This document shows positions 15,319 to 59,341 of a stretch of 64,000 nt of DNA, one piece after another. The DNA is from Octopus sinensis (taxonomy: Eukaryota). The stretch's first letter is position 1. Each line of letters starts with the position of its first letter. The notes below the pieces were generated by a model. That model was not told the DNA's origin. It made no database searches and saw only the letters and a program-made list of their open reading frames with translations. A program made the position numbers and the translations under genes. The DNA lies in the NCBI RefSeq assembly GCF_006345805.1, contig NC_043006.1, positions 33,852,001 through 33,916,000 of the forward strand. Reading direction: 5' to 3'.

Positions 15319-16451
15319 CGAGGGGCGTTCATTAAAGATTTCCCTGGAACCACTCCCCAAAGATTGGGATAAATGAAACTTGGCATAGTTATTAGTCCTT
15401 CTGTCCATGGCCACCACCAATGGTGACACACCTCTCCCATCGCTTTATGCAGCTGTGAAAACCTCGTCTGTGGAAGTCAATAAATTGTGTCTGGAGCCAA
15501 GATTTTACCTCAGAAATAAGTTCATCATCAGCTATAAAGTACTTCCTCTTCAAAAAAGACTTTATGGTTGGAAAGAGGTGGAAGTCAAACGGTAAGAGGT
15601 CACAAGAGTAAGGGATTTTATAGAGAGGAAAGATTTCATGGCCACAGGAGTGTGCTTTCATCTGGACAACATGTGCATTGTGAACCGGGGCATTGTTTAG
15701 GAGGAGGATAACTCCTTTGGTCAGCATGCCACGACTATCCGCTTTGATAGTGTCTCGCAATTTCTGCAGCAGAGAAGTATAATATGCCCCATTAACTGTG
15801 GGGCCCTTTGCCAGAAAATCCATCATCACTGCTCCATGCTGGTCTCAAAAGACTGTGAGCATCACCATGCCTGCTGAGGATTGGACACAAGCCTTCTTTC
15901 AAAGTGGTGAATTATCATGCTTCCATTGCTTTGACTGGACTTTAGTCTCAGAATCAAAGTGATGGACCTATGTTTCATCCTGTGAGATAAGTCTGCCAAA
16001 AAAGTCCTCCTTGTTTTCTTGGCACATTGCCAAAATAGCCTGGGGGCATCTGATTCGTTCCTGCTTCTGAAAAAGTGCAAGAATCTGGGGAATTCATCGT
16101 ACGGACAACTTCCATATGTGCAAATAGTCGTGAATGATTTTTCCATGGACCCTACACTTATCTTTACTTCTGGGCTAGTTACCAAATAGTTATGTGGTGA
16201 TCCTCTGAAATGGCAGCTTAAACTTCTTTCATCTCATCAAGTAAAAGAACCTGAACACTGATTTACATTCAACTGCTTCCATTATAACACCTTAGTCCAC
16301 TTCAGTAGCTGTAAAAGACAAATGAATACTAGTGGAAAGCTGTAACTCACAATGTGACATGTAGAGACATGTATGATTATGCTGGTACAAGTTCTGTTTC
16401 CTGCAATAACCGGAAGTAGGTCAGGGGAAAATCTTTTATGGACACACCTCG
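15319..16451 (-). mobile_element. Mariner (Tc1/mariner) transposon, near full length, transposase pseudogenised
   Basis: TIRs CGAGGGGCGTTCATTAAAGATTTCCCT and reverse-complement CGAGGTGTGTCCATAAAAGATTTTCCCCT with TA flank. Motifs QDET*VHHFDSETKVQSKQW, NNAPVH and YSCDLLPFDFHLF (ORF 15392-15829); stops and frameshifts present. Confidence 0.92.
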
Positions 16452-26324: not shown

Positions 26325-26360
26325 CTGTCTCTAAAACTGCCAATGAGGATGTCTCTACAT

Positions 26361-28119
26361 CAGGCTTAGGCAGTAACCTTGTTCAAGAAGTGGGCCACAT
26401 GGGGCATGGTTCACCATCATGTAGGCTGCATGGGGCATGGTTCACCATCATGTAGGCTGCATGGGGCATGGTTCACCATCATGTAGGCTGCATGGGGCAT
26501 GGTTCACCATCATGTAGGCAGCATGGGGCATGGTTCACCATCATGTAGGCTGCATGGGGCATGGTTCACCATCATGTAGGCTGCATGGGGCATGGTTCAC
26601 CATCATGTAGGCAGCATGGGGCATGGTTCACCATCATGTAGGCTGCATGGGGCATGGTTCATCATTAGGTAGGCTGCATGGGGCATGGTTCACCATCATG
26701 TAGGCTGCATGGGGCATGGTTCACCATCATGTAGGCAGCATGGGGCATGGTTCACCATCATGTAGGCTGCATGGGGCATGGTTCATCATTAGGTAGGCTG
26801 CATGGGGCATGGTTCACCATCATGTAGGCTGCATGGGGCATGGTTCACCATCATGTAGGCTGCATGGGGCATGGTTCATCATTAGGTAGGCTGCATGGGG
26901 CATGGTTCACCATCATGTAGGCTGCATGGGGCATGGTTCATCATTAGGTAGGCTGCATGGGGCATGGTTCACCATCATGTAGGCTGCATGGGGCATGGTT
27001 CATCATTAGGTAGGCTGCATGGGGCATGGTTCACCATCATGTAGGCTGCATGGGGCATGGTTCATCATTAGGTAGGCTGCATGGGGCATGGTTCACCATC
27101 ATGTAGGCTGCATGGGTCATGGTTCATCATTAGGTAGGCTGCATGGGCATGGTTCACCATCATGTAGGCTGCATGGGGCATGGTTCATCATTAGGTAGGC
27201 TGCATGGGGCATGGTTCACCATCATGTAGGCTGCATGGGGCATGGTTCATCATTAGGTAGGCTGCATGGGGCATGGTTCACCATCATGTAGGCTGCATGG
27301 GGCATGGTTCACCATCATGTAGGCAGCATGGGGCATGGTTCACCATCATGTAGGCTGCATGGGGCATGGTTCACCATCATGTAGGCTGCATGGGGCATGG
27401 TTCACCATCATGTAGGCTGCATGGGGCATGGTTCATCATCATGTAGGCTGCATGGGGCATGGTTCACCATCATGTAGGCTGCATGGGGCATGGTTCACCA
27501 TCATGTAGGCTGCATGGGGCATGGTTCACCATCATGTAGGCAGCATGGGGCATGGTTCACCATCATGTAGGCTGCATGGGGCATGGTTCATCATCATGTA
27601 GGCTGCATGGGGCATGGTTCATCATTAGGTAGGCTGCATGGGGCATGGTTCACCATCATGTAGGCTGCATGGGGCATGGTTCACCATCATGTAGGCAGCA
27701 TGGGGCATGGTTCACCATCATGTAGGCTGCATGGGGCATGGTTCACCATCATGTAGGCTGCATGGGGCATGGTTCACCATCATGTAGGCTGCATGGGGCA
27801 TGGTTCATCATCATGTAGGCTGCATGGGGCATGGTTCACCATCATGTAGGCTGCATGGGGCATGGTTCACCATCATGTAGGCTGCATGGGGCATGGTTCA
27901 CCATCATGTAGGCTGCATGGGGCATGGTTCATCATCATGTAGGCTGCATGGGGCATGGTTCACCATCATGTAGGCTGCATGGGGCATGGTTCACCATCAT
28001 GTAGGCTGCATGGGGCATGGTTCACCATCAGGTGGCCACACTACTTAAAAGATTCAAAGTAATTTTTGGTTAGGTGCACCATTCAGAAAGTTCTGCAAAC
28101 TGCAGTTTGCCCACAACTG
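26361..28119. mobile_element. hAT MITE expanded by an internal minisatellite
   Basis: Degenerate TIRs CAGGCTTAGGCAGTAACC and GTTTGCCCACAACTG; 8-bp TSD CTCTACAT (26353-26360)/CTCTAAAT (28120-28127). Confidence 0.7.
26398..28030. repeat. 31-bp minisatellite, about 53 copies (CATGGGGCATGGTTCACCATCATGTAGGCTG)
   Basis: 31-bp period read directly (26398, 26429, 26460...); near-identical units with four recurring variants. Confidence 0.98.
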
Positions 28120-53918: not shown

Positions 53919-54740
53919 TTCCTGAATTGCAAATGAATATTTTTCAAAGAGAGAGGGAGAGAGAGAGCTAATGTCCTAGTTGTTAGATCAAGATAGACTA
54001 CTTTGGCTGTCTATGTTGTTGTCACTTTGAAGTTCTCTGGCAATACAGCTATGCCTGACCTTCTGATATTACAAAGCAGTTTCTTTTTTTGTTTCTGATG
54101 ACCTGTTGCAGTAGAACTGGTCATCAATCATTGAATATTTTCCAAGGAGCTCATTTCCAATCTCATGATGTTGTCTGCCTCATGTGGGCAGACTTGATTA
54201 ATGGGTGCACTTCGATAACTGATCATTAGTAAATGCTGTTGGACGGATATGAAGTTACATTAAAAGGCTGCTTGATTCAATGTTAAGCCCCTGCCATCTC
54301 ATTTTCATTTTAAGCAGAGACAGTCTGTTTATGTAGAAATTTCACTGTTTATGTAGAAATTTCAGGTATCAGTTCGTAGTTTTAGGATTTTAAGATCAAT
54401 AACACAAATCTCATGTAATGTCCAAGTGAGACACCCAAATGTTGCTATGACTATTAATACTGCAAACACATTGAGGATCATTCATTTGTTGTACAAAGTT
54501 CTGAGGACCATATATTTTTACTTATATTTATTCTGGTGTTGTATTCTTTGGTTATGCATACAGATCTGAAGAAATCACAACATTTAGGGCACTAGATAAT
54601 TTCTGACCCTAATCTATAGGAATGTCAAAACAAATTCTACAACAATTTTTTCCAACCATTTTAGACCTATGGATCCCTTTAGTTCCTCTTCTGCTTTACA
54701 AGACCCTCATAATCAGTTAATGTTTTAAAAAATCCTATTA

Positions 54741-55119
54741 TTCAACTTACGATGAAAGTAAACAAAGTTTGCTTTAGAAGCGTGGAGATGGTATTGAAAG
54801 ATACATAAATAATTTTATTCTCAAATGCATGATAATGCTAATAAAATTGCTTGAACAGGATAAACTATCCATATTTTGCAGAAAAATTCATTACCGTCTT
54901 ATAAAGCTAGATTTATAAATCCTAACATTGCAGAACAATTCGTTACTGGGCAGTTTTGCTCAATAGTAAAAGACTTGACATGTAATTACAGAGATATGAG
55001 TTCGAGTCTCATGGCTGGCCGGTAATGAATTTTTCAGTAATATATGGATAGTTTATCCTGTTCATGCTATTGTATTAGGATTGTCAGATGTTTGAGAATA
55101 AATTATTTCTGTATCTTTC
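54741..55119 (+). mobile_element. Fold-back insertion containing a tRNA-like module, 11-12 bp TSD
   Basis: TSD AAATCCTATTA(T) at 54730-54740 and 55120-55130; ~100-bp inverted arms 54794-54896 and 55020-55121; ~53-bp one-sided tail. Confidence 0.8.
54949..55020 (+). pseudogene. tRNA-like sequence (possibly Thr-TGT derived), degenerate
   Basis: 72 nt; acceptor GGCAGTT/GGCTGGC, A-box-like TTGCTCAATAG, perfect T arm ATGAG-TTCGAGT-CTCAT; D and anticodon stems imperfect. Confidence 0.65.
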
Positions 55120-55150
55120 AAATCCTATTATATTTTCATAATGAAATATT

Positions 55151-55785
55151 CTTTTCTGCTCTAGGTACAAGGCCTGAAATTTTGGGTACTTAATTTATCG
55201 ACCCCCCAAAATGATGAAAGGCAAAGTGGAATTTGAACTCAGAACATAAAGACAGATGAAATACCGCTAAGCATTTCACACGGCATGTTAACATTTCTGC
55301 CAGCTTGCTGCCATTTTCATAATGGAATATTATTAGGAATTGTATTATTATTGCTGGCAGAATTGTTAGCCCGCCGGGCAAAATGCTTCGCAGTATTTTG
55401 TCTGGCTTTACATTCTGAGTTTAAATACTGCTGAGGTTGACTTTACCTTTTCATCCTTTCAGGGTCGATAAATAAAGTACCAGTTGCATACTAGGGTCGA
55501 TCTAATTGACTGGCCCCCACCCCCAATATTTCAGGCCTTGTGCCTAGAATAGAAAAGGATATCTATAAAGGCAGCAAGCTGGCAGAATTATAAGCATGCC
55601 AGGCGAAATGCTTAGCAGTATTTCGTCTGTCTTTACATTCTGAGTTCAAATTCAGCCGAGGGCGATTTTTCCTTTCATCCTTTTGGGGTCGATGAAATAA
55701 GTACCATTTACACACTGGGGTTGATGTAATCGACTAGCCCCATTCCCCCCAAATTTTCATGGCCTTGTGCCTAGAACAGAAATAA
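55151..55785. mobile_element. Three SINE family B copies (55151-55312 minus; ~55352-55560 and 55569-55785 plus)
   Basis: GGCAGCAAGCTGGCAGAATT...TTCTGAGTTCAAATTC...GGGGTCGATGAAATAAGTACC. TSDs ATTTTCATAATGRAATATT and ATTATTAGGAATTGTAT (55329-55345/55785-55801). Confidence 0.85.
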
Positions 55786-55808
55786 TTATTAGGAATTGTA
55801 TAAAAAGA

Positions 55809-56183
55809 CTAGCAGTATCGCCCGGCGTTGCTCGGGTTTGTAAGGGAAATAACTATAAAGCATTTTTAGAGAGTTATAGCCAAAAAAATGGAAAAAAAAT
55901 TATGGTAAATTTTTTTTTGAGAGTTAAAACGGTCGAGTTGCGTCCCCTAGACAGTCTGTGGTTTGTGTTTCTGATTCTCGACCCCATGTCGAATTTATCG
56001 ATTTTTTTAAGAACTGGGGGAACTTTTCAAAATTTTCTCTACGTTAGTTTTGAATTATGACATTGGGCTATGTGTGTGTTAAGTTTCATCAGAATCGGTT
56101 GAAAGCTGTGGTCAGGGTGAGGGTACAAGCTAACAGACACACAGAAACACACACAGACAAACTGCCGTTTATATAGAGAGAGA
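55809..56183 (-). mobile_element. Non-autonomous Helitron
   Basis: Minus strand starts TC(TCTCTC)TATATAAA and ends with hairpin CCCGAGCAACGCCGGG, then CTAG; inserted between A and T with no TSD. Confidence 0.88.
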
Positions 56184-57229
56184 TTGTTGAAATATTTTAT
56201 GTATTATAGAAGTATGACCAATTTATTACAAACAAACCTTAACTACAAAATTATTATATGGAATCTCAGAGGTCATAATGGACTCCACTGCTCTGTAAGA
56301 TTATCTACATGCTAGAAATAGCAGCCAGATCTCTGCCTGTTTATATGTTTCTCCCTCTCAAATTATATCCAATGGATTTTAGGGAAATATTCATGTGATA
56401 ATATAGTCCTTACCACTGCAATATACCTGAGAAATAGACAGGACTGTCATAGCTGGAAAGGCTTTGATTACAGACCAGGCTGTGTGCTAAACATGAACAA
56501 CATCATGAGTATAACTGTTCCATAGAAACTACCACTGACCTCCACCACCACCACCACCTCCACCCTTTCATGATGTAGCATTCAGAGAACAGAAGAGGAG
56601 GGGGAAGAGCAATAATAATAATGATGATGATGATGGTGATGATGATGATGATGATTTCTTTTATTTGCCACCAGGGCGAAGATGAAGGGGACAATACAAA
56701 GACAGACATAAAGTGGTGGGGTTTACATATAATGAAATGATGACAAAAAAAAAAAAAGGAAAATAATAAAAGACAAATAATGCAAAAAACAGGAAGCCAT
56801 CTCCTAACAAATGTTTTTCTGTTTTCCTTCAACACACTAACCTTTCACTTTTAACCTCAACAGAATTTTTGGTAAGTTGTTTTGAAGGTTCAACATGAAA
56901 AGAAAGCTGTGTGCTACTTGAGATGAACATTTGATACATAGAAACCTTCCATCTTTTATGGTTTCTTTTTTTTTTTTTGGTTTTTGTTATCCATCATGCA
57001 AAACATTCAATCTTCCAAGCTGAATGTTCATCGCATTCTGTTGAATCATTGTGCAGGTACTAAAGAGTCCAGACTGAGACAAGGTTAATCCTTTAGCATT
57101 TAAACTAGCCACTGGATTTAGATTTGGATTGCCTGTGTTCAGTCCATTGCAGGACAAAGGCCTCAGCGTGTTCTCTCTACCAACCACAGTCTGATGTGGA
57201 GGCCATGGATTTAAGCTTGAGATTATACT

Positions 57230-58171: not shown

Positions 58172-58270
58172 TTACATTATTTACATTTAATGGATATTTG
58201 TCCTGATCTTATTTGTTGTTAACACAAAGTTTTGGCCGATGTACTCTCCAGTCTTTATCAGGTGTCCTGG
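58172..58270 (-). mobile_element. Degenerate copy of the hammerhead-bearing arm of the 22497-22831 element
   Basis: Colinear with 22528-22627; ribozyme core decayed (CTGATAA...AAAA). Confidence 0.8.
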
Positions 58271-58605
58271 TGATTTTGTTATGTATGTGTCTGAATGTTT
58301 TTTTTATCATACCTAATGTGCCTATTAAGATAGGAATTGTTTCTGTTTTTAGGCTCCACATTCGAGTTACCTCTATTTCCAGATCTTTGTATTTTGCAAG
58401 TTGCTCCAATTCTTTTAGAGAAATGTTGTCATCTGTTGGTATTGATACATCGATTAGAAAGCATTTTTTTCCTTGTTGATCTCTGACAACTGTATCCAGC
58501 CTATTGGCCTTAATTTCTCTATCTGTGTGTTTTGGTATATTCCAGAGTTTGGTTGCTCTCTCAGTTTTTGTGACCTTTTCTGGGGTGTGCCTAACATCAT
58601 TTTTT
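58264..58605 (-). mobile_element. R4/Dong-type RLE LINE fragment
   Basis: HTPEKV...LWNIPKHTDREIKANRLDTVVRD...CFLIDVSIP...KYKDLEIEVTRMW...IPILIGTLG. Confidence 0.88.
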
Positions 58606-58607
58606 TC

Positions 58608-58655
<48 letters not shown>

Positions 58656-58659
58656 CATT

Positions 58660-59341
58660 ATTGCCTTTGCACAGCTTCTAACACTGGAGATGTACTATGG
58701 TGTTAGCTGTTCACTACCAGTGAACTAAGGTAACACCCCTTATTTTTCGAGCACTTTCTGGAGTATTCAAGTGGTTCCAAGCAGTGCTGTTTTCTGCAAG
58801 TGCTCCATCCTTATTGCAGCCCCTATTTGTTCCACGTACTTCTCAAAATTTTTACTCACTGTTCCCAAGGCTCCAGCAATTATTGGTACTACTACCACCT
58901 TATTCATCGACCACAACATCTTAACCTCCCAAGCTAACCTGTCATATCTCTCGACTTTTCTTTCTTCCTCATCGTATACCTTGTTGTTAGCTGGGCATGC
59001 TACATCTATAATCCAGCATAGTTTGTTTTCTTTCTCAATTAAGACTAAGTCCAGCTTTCTGTTCTCTATCTCATGGTCACACTGAATCATAAAATCCCAT
59101 AGGATCTTTGCATTTCTATTTTCGACGATGCCTTCGGGTTTGTGGTCATACAAATTTTGCAAAGTGTCCAGAGGACAAGCCTGGCTATATTGTTGTGGCA
59201 TCTCTTATATTCCTTCTGGGCTAGTGGTGTACATTGGCTGGTAATATGCCATATGGTTTCACCATTTTGTCCACAAATTCTGCACTTATCACTTTCTGCT
59301 GTGTTGTCTATTCTGTATTTTATGTAATTTGTTCTTAGCGC
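58660..59341 (-). mobile_element. R4/Dong-type RLE LINE 3' end, 5'-truncated, in (TAA)n
   Basis: KCRICGQNGETIWHITSQC (CCHC), ILWDFMIQCDHEIENRKLDLV...IDVACP...VVPIIAGALG; 3' UTR then (TAA)n. Confidence 0.9.

What the first reader, a model, noticed from the sequence alone, without database searches (positions are those of the whole stretch)
54730..55130. tRNA-like module inside a PLE-style fold-back insertion: candidate Penelope-mobilised SINE
Seen: a 72-nt tRNA-like sequence (54949-55020, intact T arm/B box) runs directly into the 3' arm; an inverted copy of that arm plus a 53-bp tail lies upstream; there is no poly(A) or microsatellite tail; TSD is 11-12 bp. About 50 bp precede the tRNA within the spacer, which a simple Pol III transcript would not include. 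Known: SINEs normally end in LINE-derived tails and are LINE-mobilised. Inference: a Pol III-type element that uses PLE-type integration, possibly copied from a tandem or read-through RNA.
Basis: partly seen in the sequence, partly recalled or inferred. Interest (0 to 1): 0.8.

Follow-up and report, generated by a model that had tools for sequence, protein, structure and literature searches.

The report
tRNA-bearing hitchhiker of Penelope retrotransposons
This is one copy of a family of roughly 300-base tRNA-containing repeats whose insertions show the two fixed ends, inversions and tandems typical of Penelope-like retrotransposons, so it likely borrows Penelope enzymes rather than the LINE enzymes that ordinary SINEs use, although no partner element was found.

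Summary
Its unit is a 290-313-nt non-coding monomer: about 65 nt of leader, a tRNA-Thr(CGT)-like module, a T5-T7 run, an arm and a tail. It has three subfamilies and an estimated 1,500 or more insertions. In 122 distinct insertions, 145 of 175 3' ends fall at two sites 55-70 nt apart, while 5' ends scatter. 53 insertions are head-to-head inversions, and 33 of the 35 with both ends at fixed sites use one site on each strand. 56 read through the monomer junction. TSDs of 8-13 bp exceed chance. This is the published Penelope-like (PLE) signature, and autonomous PLEs in this genome end the same way. It is not a classical SINE: the tRNA is internal, a predicted terminator follows it, and 5' ends ignore tRNA +1. 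It is not a retrozyme either, since it has no hammerhead core. The tRNA sits in a roughly 22-bp helix with compensatory changes between subfamilies. No partner PLE or LINE was found, and the RNA data were uninformative. Verdict: likely a PLE-mobilised non-autonomous element, a new variant close to schistosome SM-alpha and the retrozymes.

The parts
54730..54741 (+). left target-site duplication (12 nt; last 2 nt shared with the element end)
   Evidence: identical to 55120-55131
54740..54793 (-). inverted tail, unit positions 290 to about 238; its outer end is 3' end site B
   Evidence: site B holds 79 of 175 family 3' ends
54794..54896 (-). inverted copy of the arm (unit 237 to 136)
54895..54896 (.). 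2-nt microhomology (CG) at the head-to-head junction
   Evidence: sequence at the junction against the unit
54895..54948 (+). leader upstream of the tRNA (unit 11-64); 54928-54948 is the 5' strand of a helix predicted to extend the acceptor stem
   Evidence: fold of the majority sequences; pair counts
54949..55020 (+). tRNA-Thr(CGT)-like module; A box 54956-54966 decayed in this copy, B box 55000-55008 intact
55021..55040 (+). 3' strand of the enclosing helix, containing the only run of four or more T (55030-55034), a predicted Pol III terminator
   Evidence: T runs; pairs
55021..55121 (+). arm, ending at 3' end site A (unit 237) without the tail
   Evidence: site A holds 66 of 175 family 3' ends
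55120..55131 (+). right target-site duplication

Best explanation
This is a copy of a non-coding, tRNA-containing repeat of 290-313 nt whose insertions have two fixed 3' ends, inversions and tandems, and which is likely moved in trans by the reverse transcriptase and GIY-YIG endonuclease of Penelope-like elements. Shown: the unit structure, the two end sites A and B, scattered 5' ends, read-through of the monomer junction, TSDs and AT-rich targets. Inferred: the template is likely a longer-than-monomer RNA (a read-through transcript of tandem copies, or a circle). A PLE ribonucleoprotein, probably dimeric, would nick both target strands about 8-13 nt apart and start reverse transcription inside the RNA, at site A on one strand and site B on the other. 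The two cDNAs would join by microhomology to give the head-to-head inversion with the tail on one side only; single priming would give plain 5'-truncated copies. The tRNA module likely acts mainly as a folded RNA domain, closed by a roughly 22-bp helix, because a transcript from its own Pol III promoter is predicted to stop about 10 nt after the tRNA and would lack the arm and tail.
For: 145 of 175 3' ends lie in two windows covering 46 of about 300 positions. In 23 insertions fetched in genome order after the windows had been set, 27 of 34 ends do. 53 of 122 insertions are inverted, and of the 35 with both ends at A or B, 33 are A+B, 2 are B+B and 0 are A+A. 56 of 122 cross the monomer junction and 29 contain a segment longer than one monomer. 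A TSD of 8 nt or more occurs in 10 of 39 insertions with non-microsatellite flanks, against 1.0% of mismatched flank pairs; (TA)n lies at the 3' flank in 42 of 122 and poly(A) in 2 of 122. The same features are described for PLEs (PMC8557442, PMC3846280 and PMC11167929). Intact RT plus C-terminal GIY-YIG ORFs exist in this genome, and two of their families also end at two sites with an optional tail in (TA)n. The helix shows two-sided changes between subfamilies at columns 19-110, 22-107, 23-106 and 31-99; 89% of cells pair against 38-54% in slid controls.
Against: No partner was found: the arm and tail match none of 70 GIY-YIG-selected loci (a few are not PLEs and some overlap) above shuffled controls (18 of 25 and 9 of 25 shuffles scored as high). 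They also do not resemble the published Naiad_Ovul 3' end, compared by eye. The tail is 55-70 nt, longer than the 30-40 nt published for PLEs and the roughly 25-38 nt seen in native PLEs. 30 of 175 ends lie outside both sites. Subfamily 2 is rarely inverted (1 of 31, against 52 of 91 for the others). The end windows were defined from the first 72 insertions, and most samples were selected by score or motif. The compensatory changes represent only a few independent events: pairs with two-sided change were 7 against 5.8 in shuffles, and 152 of 500 shuffles reached that number. Nothing here shows which polymerase makes the RNA or whether it is circular.
Confidence: 0.62

Rival explanations
1. PLE-mobilised as above, but a true Pol III element in the manner of schistosome SM-alpha: the tRNA promoter of an upstream monomer drives a read-through transcript of the downstream monomer or monomers, and that RNA is the template.
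For: A and B boxes are kept in the majority sequences of all three subfamilies. Each unit checked has only one run of four or more T. Tandems are common. The SM-alpha model is described in PMC6765202 (passages).
Against: That one T run is T5 to T7 and lies about 10 nt after the tRNA. Copies ending at A, or at B after a tRNA, require reading through it. 5' ends are not enriched at tRNA +1 (10 of 182 against 11.5 expected). There is no hammerhead to cut monomers.
Confidence: 0.22
2. An ordinary tRNA SINE mobilised by a LINE, with inversions made by twin priming.
For: It has a tRNA-like module, 5' truncation and 8-13-bp TSDs. LINE-type RTs are abundant.
Against: The tRNA is internal. There are two 3' ends and no poly(A) or repeat tail (2 of 122 have poly(A)). 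The inverted segment duplicates the 3' part rather than coming from upstream, which is unlike twin priming as I recall it. The arm and tail show no convincing match to 50 RT loci in 7 clusters: the best hit was 33 nt at E 0.008, reached by 2 of 25 shuffles. The LINE sample is small.
Confidence: 0.07
3. A DNA element (a MITE or foldback with TIRs, or a non-autonomous Helitron forming tandems) that captured a tRNA pseudogene.
For: This copy has long inverted arms and a TSD. Tandem repeats also occur in rolling-circle elements (recalled).
Against: 69 of 122 insertions have no inversion, inversion lengths and junctions vary, and 5' ends scatter. End positions spread over several nucleotides. TSDs of 8-13 nt are not expected of Helitrons (recalled). 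The compensatory changes point to selection on a folded single strand.
Confidence: 0.05

Closest known systems
Penelope-like elements (Penelope/Poseidon, Neptune, Naiad) and their non-autonomous derivatives such as Chlamydomonas MRC1
   Same: 5' truncation, partial tandems, an inverted 5' copy, an optional tail, 8-10-bp TSDs and a (TA)n/AT target bias; two internal RT start sites in vitro (PMC8557442 passages, PMC3846280 passages, PMC11167929 parts 1-2 of 4).
   Different: No ORF; carries a tRNA module; the tail is 55-70 nt rather than 30-40 nt; no 3' sequence similarity to an autonomous family was found, whereas non-autonomous Chlamys elements generally have it.
Schistosoma SM-alpha / Sj-alpha SINE-like repeats
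   Same: Short tandem and dispersed repeat with a Pol III-type promoter inside the unit, thought to be copied from multimeric RNA (PMC6765202 passages).
   Different: SM-alpha has an active hammerhead and this family has no hammerhead core. I saw no description of PLE-type two-site ends or inversions for SM-alpha in what I read. Here a predicted terminator follows the tRNA.
Metazoan non-LTR retrozymes
   Same: 170-400-nt highly structured monomers in tandem, proposed to be non-autonomous PLE derivatives (PMC7229834 passages, PMC7761336 passages, bioRxiv 10.64898/2026.07.22.740005 part 1 of 5). The monomer here folds at z of about -6.
   Different: Retrozymes are defined by a type I hammerhead and are said to lack promoters. 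This family has a tRNA module, no hammerhead, and no long arrays were seen (up to about 2.6 monomers).
Canonical tRNA SINEs, including octopus OK, OR1 and OR2 and the Ceph-SINEs
   Same: tRNA-derived module with A and B boxes, TSDs, and copy number in the thousands.
   Different: The tRNA is not at the 5' end, there is no LINE-like or poly(A) tail, and there are two 3' ends. I saw the octopus SINE papers only as citations and could not compare sequences.

Membership tests
Non-autonomous Penelope-like element | Optional 3' tail, giving two alternative 3' ends | tested here: met
   A 66, B 79, other 30 of 175 ends; the tail is 55-70 nt, longer than published
Non-autonomous Penelope-like element | Partial tandems and head-to-head inverted 5' copies, with 5' truncation | tested here: met
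   53 of 122 inverted, 56 of 122 cross the junction, 5' ends scattered
Non-autonomous Penelope-like element | AT/(TA)n target bias with variable TSD | tested here: met
   (TA)n at 42 of 122 3' flanks; TSD of 8 nt or more in 10 of 39 against 1.0% in controls
Non-autonomous Penelope-like element | 3' sequence shared with an autonomous PLE | tested here: inconclusive
   No match above shuffles in 70 GIY-YIG-selected loci; only the top 150 of 5029 candidates were scored
Non-autonomous Penelope-like element | Mobilisation by PLE protein | not testable with these tools
   needs an in vitro or cell assay
SINE (tRNA-derived) | tRNA-derived region with A and B boxes | tested here: met
   RF00005 above gathering in 3 loci of 10 scanned; Thr(CGT) cloverleaf in majority sequences
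SINE (tRNA-derived) | Element begins at the tRNA head | tested here: not met
   64-71 nt of leader; 10 of 182 5' ends near tRNA +1 against 11.5 expected
SINE (tRNA-derived) | No internal Pol III terminator before the 3' end | tested here: not met
   T5 (subfamily 1) and T7 (subfamily 2) about 10 nt after the tRNA; termination itself is predicted, not assayed
SINE (tRNA-derived) | LINE-derived 3' end or poly(A)/simple-repeat tail | tested here: not met
   poly(A) in 2 of 122; no convincing match to 50 RT loci, a partial sample
SINE (tRNA-derived) | Transcribed by Pol III | not testable with these tools
   the RNA-seq lay showed no start or end piles
Non-LTR retrozyme | Type I hammerhead in each monomer | tested here: not met
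   0 full cores on either strand of three majority sequences; the same scan found a core in 5 of 5 native PLE control stretches; no ribozyme family among the Rfam hits shown
Non-LTR retrozyme | Structured 170-400-nt monomer in tandem | tested here: met
   290-313 nt, z -5.5 to -7.0; tandems up to about 2.6 units
Non-LTR retrozyme | Circular RNA in vivo | not testable with these tools
   genomic tandems make junction reads ambiguous
MITE / foldback DNA transposon | Fixed terminal inverted repeats in all full copies | tested here: not met
   69 of 122 have no inversion; inversion extents vary

The most novel reading that the evidence does not exclude
A ribozyme-free, tRNA-scaffolded RNA parasite of Penelope elements: a SINE-like class whose partner is a PLE, replicating from a multimeric or circular RNA in which a long helix locks the tRNA ends. 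Its A+B inversions would be a genomic record of a dimeric PLE enzyme priming both target strands at two different RNA sites in one event.
Probability: 0.4. Interest if true: 0.8.

Novelty: new variant of a known kind. Interest (0 to 1): 0.6.

Why it matters
SINE-like tRNA elements are normally tied to LINE partners, and the short PLE parasites I found described in animals (retrozymes) are defined by a hammerhead. A tRNA-bearing, hammerhead-free element with PLE-type ends widens both categories and suggests that some 'unclassified SINEs' are PLE passengers. The 33-of-35 pairing of site A with site B at opposite ends makes an open question testable: how PLEs form inverted pLTRs and one-sided tails. 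A 300-nt RNA with two defined start sites would be a compact substrate for the existing in vitro PLE assay.

Tried and rejected
Partner search: 70 loci from a GIY-YIG search gave no match to the unit above shuffles. A PLE RT protein search returned mainly one family (loci not fetched). Published Naiad_Ovul and Hydra-1_Obim ends were compared by eye only, without resemblance. Upstream flanks of truncated copies share no other sequence; the three matches were duplicate loci. LINE test: 50 RT loci, no convincing match; most top RT hits lie on small unplaced contigs of unknown origin. Hammerhead: two look-alike motifs on the minus strand lack core positions and one is not kept across subfamilies, so they were rejected. 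RNA: no RNA holder was listed. Three raw-read runs and one contig run were laid: 1439, 774 and 882 reads from about 6% of each raw run, mostly under 90% alike, in both mate directions, with no start or end piles. These runs carry a different organism code from the best DNA holder, so this says nothing on the mobile RNA. Two motifs from those reads had 0 matches in G000; a third had 220 and revealed subfamily 2. Longer tandem clusters of 468-690 nt were later local duplications that include unrelated repeats. tRNA source: only 30 tRNA loci of five isotypes were compared, and Thr and Lys scored alike, so the Thr assignment rests on the CGT anticodon. Earlier findings of the scan: nothing returned. 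Literature searches for a tRNA- or SINE-type PLE passenger found no description. Repbase, Dfam, SINEBase and subscription papers were not searchable, and the supplement of PMC13282606 was not examined.

Full report
Observation. The window holds, at 54730-55131, an insertion bounded by the 12-nt direct repeat AAATCCTATTAT, with an inverted arm plus tail on the left, a 52-nt spacer, a 72-nt tRNA-like stretch and the arm on the right. This copy is not called as a tRNA by ARAGORN or Rfam; its A box is decayed and its B box intact. The microsatellite-rich sequence and neighbouring repeats look like an octopus genome. That is recalled, not tested.

Family. A search of G000 gave 1648 candidates, 40 scored. 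Pile-ups of the copies define a monomer of 290 nt, and later two more subfamilies of 313 and 306 nt that are 86-94% identical over aligned positions. Copies are a median 91-93% identical to their majority sequence, so the family is not very young. A 17-nt arm motif occurs 614 times exactly, and the backwards control 0 times. At 30 exact matches per 72 sampled insertions this gives about 1,500 insertions, probably an underestimate because the sample favours good copies. In 10 loci scanned, three tRNA hits pass the Rfam gathering score, and the majority sequences of subfamilies 1 and 2 fold as tRNA-Thr(CGT). All 30 loci selected by the tRNA alone have it inside the same unit.

Architecture. Five searches (window copy, tail, tRNA, a subfamily 2 motif, the arm motif) gave 150 loci, which collapse to 122 distinct insertions. 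Of 175 3' ends, 66 lie at site A (end of the arm), 79 at site B (end of the tail) and 30 elsewhere. The windows cover 46 of about 300 positions and were set on the first 72 insertions. In 23 new insertions taken later in genome order, 27 of 34 ends fell in them. Motif-anchored sampling raises the chance expectation above 16%, but by my estimate to no more than about 40%. 53 insertions are head-to-head inversions. Among those, 33 are A+B, 2 B+B, 0 A+A, and 18 have one end elsewhere. 56 of 122 read through the monomer junction and 29 have a segment longer than a monomer. 5' ends scatter, with 10 of 182 near tRNA +1 against 11.5 expected. In the 39 insertions without microsatellite flanks (83 set aside), 10 have a TSD of 8-13 nt, against 1.0% of mismatched pairs. 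(TA)n lies at 42 of 122 3' flanks and poly(A) at 2. The window copy is a typical case: site B on the left, site A on the right, and a 2-nt microhomology at the junction.

Comparison with PLEs. Partial tandems, an inverted 5' copy, a 30-40-nt tail at one end and (TA)n targets are described for PLEs in PMC8557442 (passages and supplement). Inverted pLTRs with 8-10-bp TSDs and a one-sided tail are described in PMC3846280 (passages). PMC11167929 (parts 1-2 of 4) shows in vitro that a PLE protein, predicted to be a dimer, cuts both strands at AT-rich sites, starts reverse transcription at two internal RNA sites that bound the tail, and does not need hammerhead cleavage. [quoted passage not shown] They serve as a positive control: by my reading, 5 of 12 distinct copies of one group and 5 of 17 of another carry an extra tail of about 25-38 nt, and most others stop at a common earlier site in (TA)n.

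Partner. None was found. The arm and tail score at the level of shuffled sequence against 70 GIY-YIG-selected loci and 50 RT loci, and truncated copies never continue upstream into a shared foreign sequence. The sampling of autonomous families is incomplete, so this is an open gap and the main weakness of the reading.

RNA structure. The monomer folds far better than shuffles on both strands (z -5.5 to -7.0). The tRNA is enclosed by a helix of about 22 bp between the leader and the T-run region in all three subfamilies. On 33 of the 60 listed stretches, picked to span the subfamilies, 89% of cells pair against 38-54% in slid controls, with two-sided changes at three helix pairs and one acceptor pair. 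These are a few inherited events, and the count of such pairs is not above shuffles (152 of 500). The helix can form only in an RNA that starts upstream of the tRNA. The only run of four or more T lies about 10 nt after the tRNA, where Pol III would be expected to stop. No hammerhead core exists in any majority sequence, while the same scan finds one in 5 of 5 native PLE controls.

Mechanism. The best-supported reading is mobilisation in trans by a PLE enzyme from a multimeric or circular RNA, with priming at A on one target strand and at B on the other. The end pattern is shown; the enzyme, the template form and the polymerase are inferred. The SM-alpha model, in which an upstream Pol III promoter drives the downstream unit (PMC6765202, passages), remains the main rival. 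RNA-seq reads were uninformative.

Novelty. Non-autonomous PLE derivatives are known (MRC1; retrozymes in PMC7229834 and PMC7761336, passages; bioRxiv 10.64898/2026.07.22.740005, part 1 of 5), and SM-alpha already joins a Pol III promoter to a tandem retrozyme-like unit. Nine searches found no tRNA-bearing, hammerhead-free element with PLE ends. The family may already sit unclassified in repeat libraries: PMC13282606 (passages) lists 893 unclassified recently active SINE families in Octopus vulgaris, and I did not see its supplement. Verdict: a real feature and a new variant of a known kind, interest 0.6.

Noticed in passing
window 55132-55801: Three copies of a different, roughly 225-nt SINE-like repeat lie directly downstream: one on the minus strand between 22-nt near-identical repeats (55132-55153 / 55313-55334) and a head-to-tail pair between 17-nt exact repeats (55329-55345 / 55785-55801).
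   Followed up: no
window about 55808-56185; also inside L251: A roughly 370-nt repeat starting ACTAGCAGTATCGCCCGG, which resembles a non-autonomous Helitron-type element (recalled). A near-identical copy has inserted into a subfamily 2 monomer in L251 and was then tandemly triplicated.
   Followed up: no
L059 about 2730, L049 about 2070, L044 about 2330 (minus strand): Native PLE families carry hammerhead cores with U3-A8 or A3-U8 in place of the usual C3-G8 pair.
   Followed up: partly
L121-L150 and subfamily 2 copies among L191-L220: Subfamily 2 is almost never inverted (1 of 31), unlike subfamilies 1 and 3 (52 of 91), which may mean a different partner enzyme.
   Followed up: partly
reads laid on L010:1430-1718 (runs X21-X23): A diverged variant of the element dominates the RNA reads (hundreds of reads with the same loose ends), but two of its motifs have no match in G000; it may be a copy in an expressed gene or a subfamily of a related species.
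   Followed up: partly
G000 small contigs such as C8591, C8615, C12602, C2292: Many top tRNA and RT hits lie on small unplaced contigs, often as identical copies; these could be collapsed repeats or foreign DNA.
   Followed up: no
window 15392-16233 and 58209-59204: Frames that read like decayed mariner transposase and RTE-type LINE 3' fragments (recalled resemblance).
   Followed up: no
window about 26360-28010: A GC-rich tandem array with a period of about 31 nt, seen as repeated low-threshold ARAGORN calls and a GC peak.
   Followed up: no
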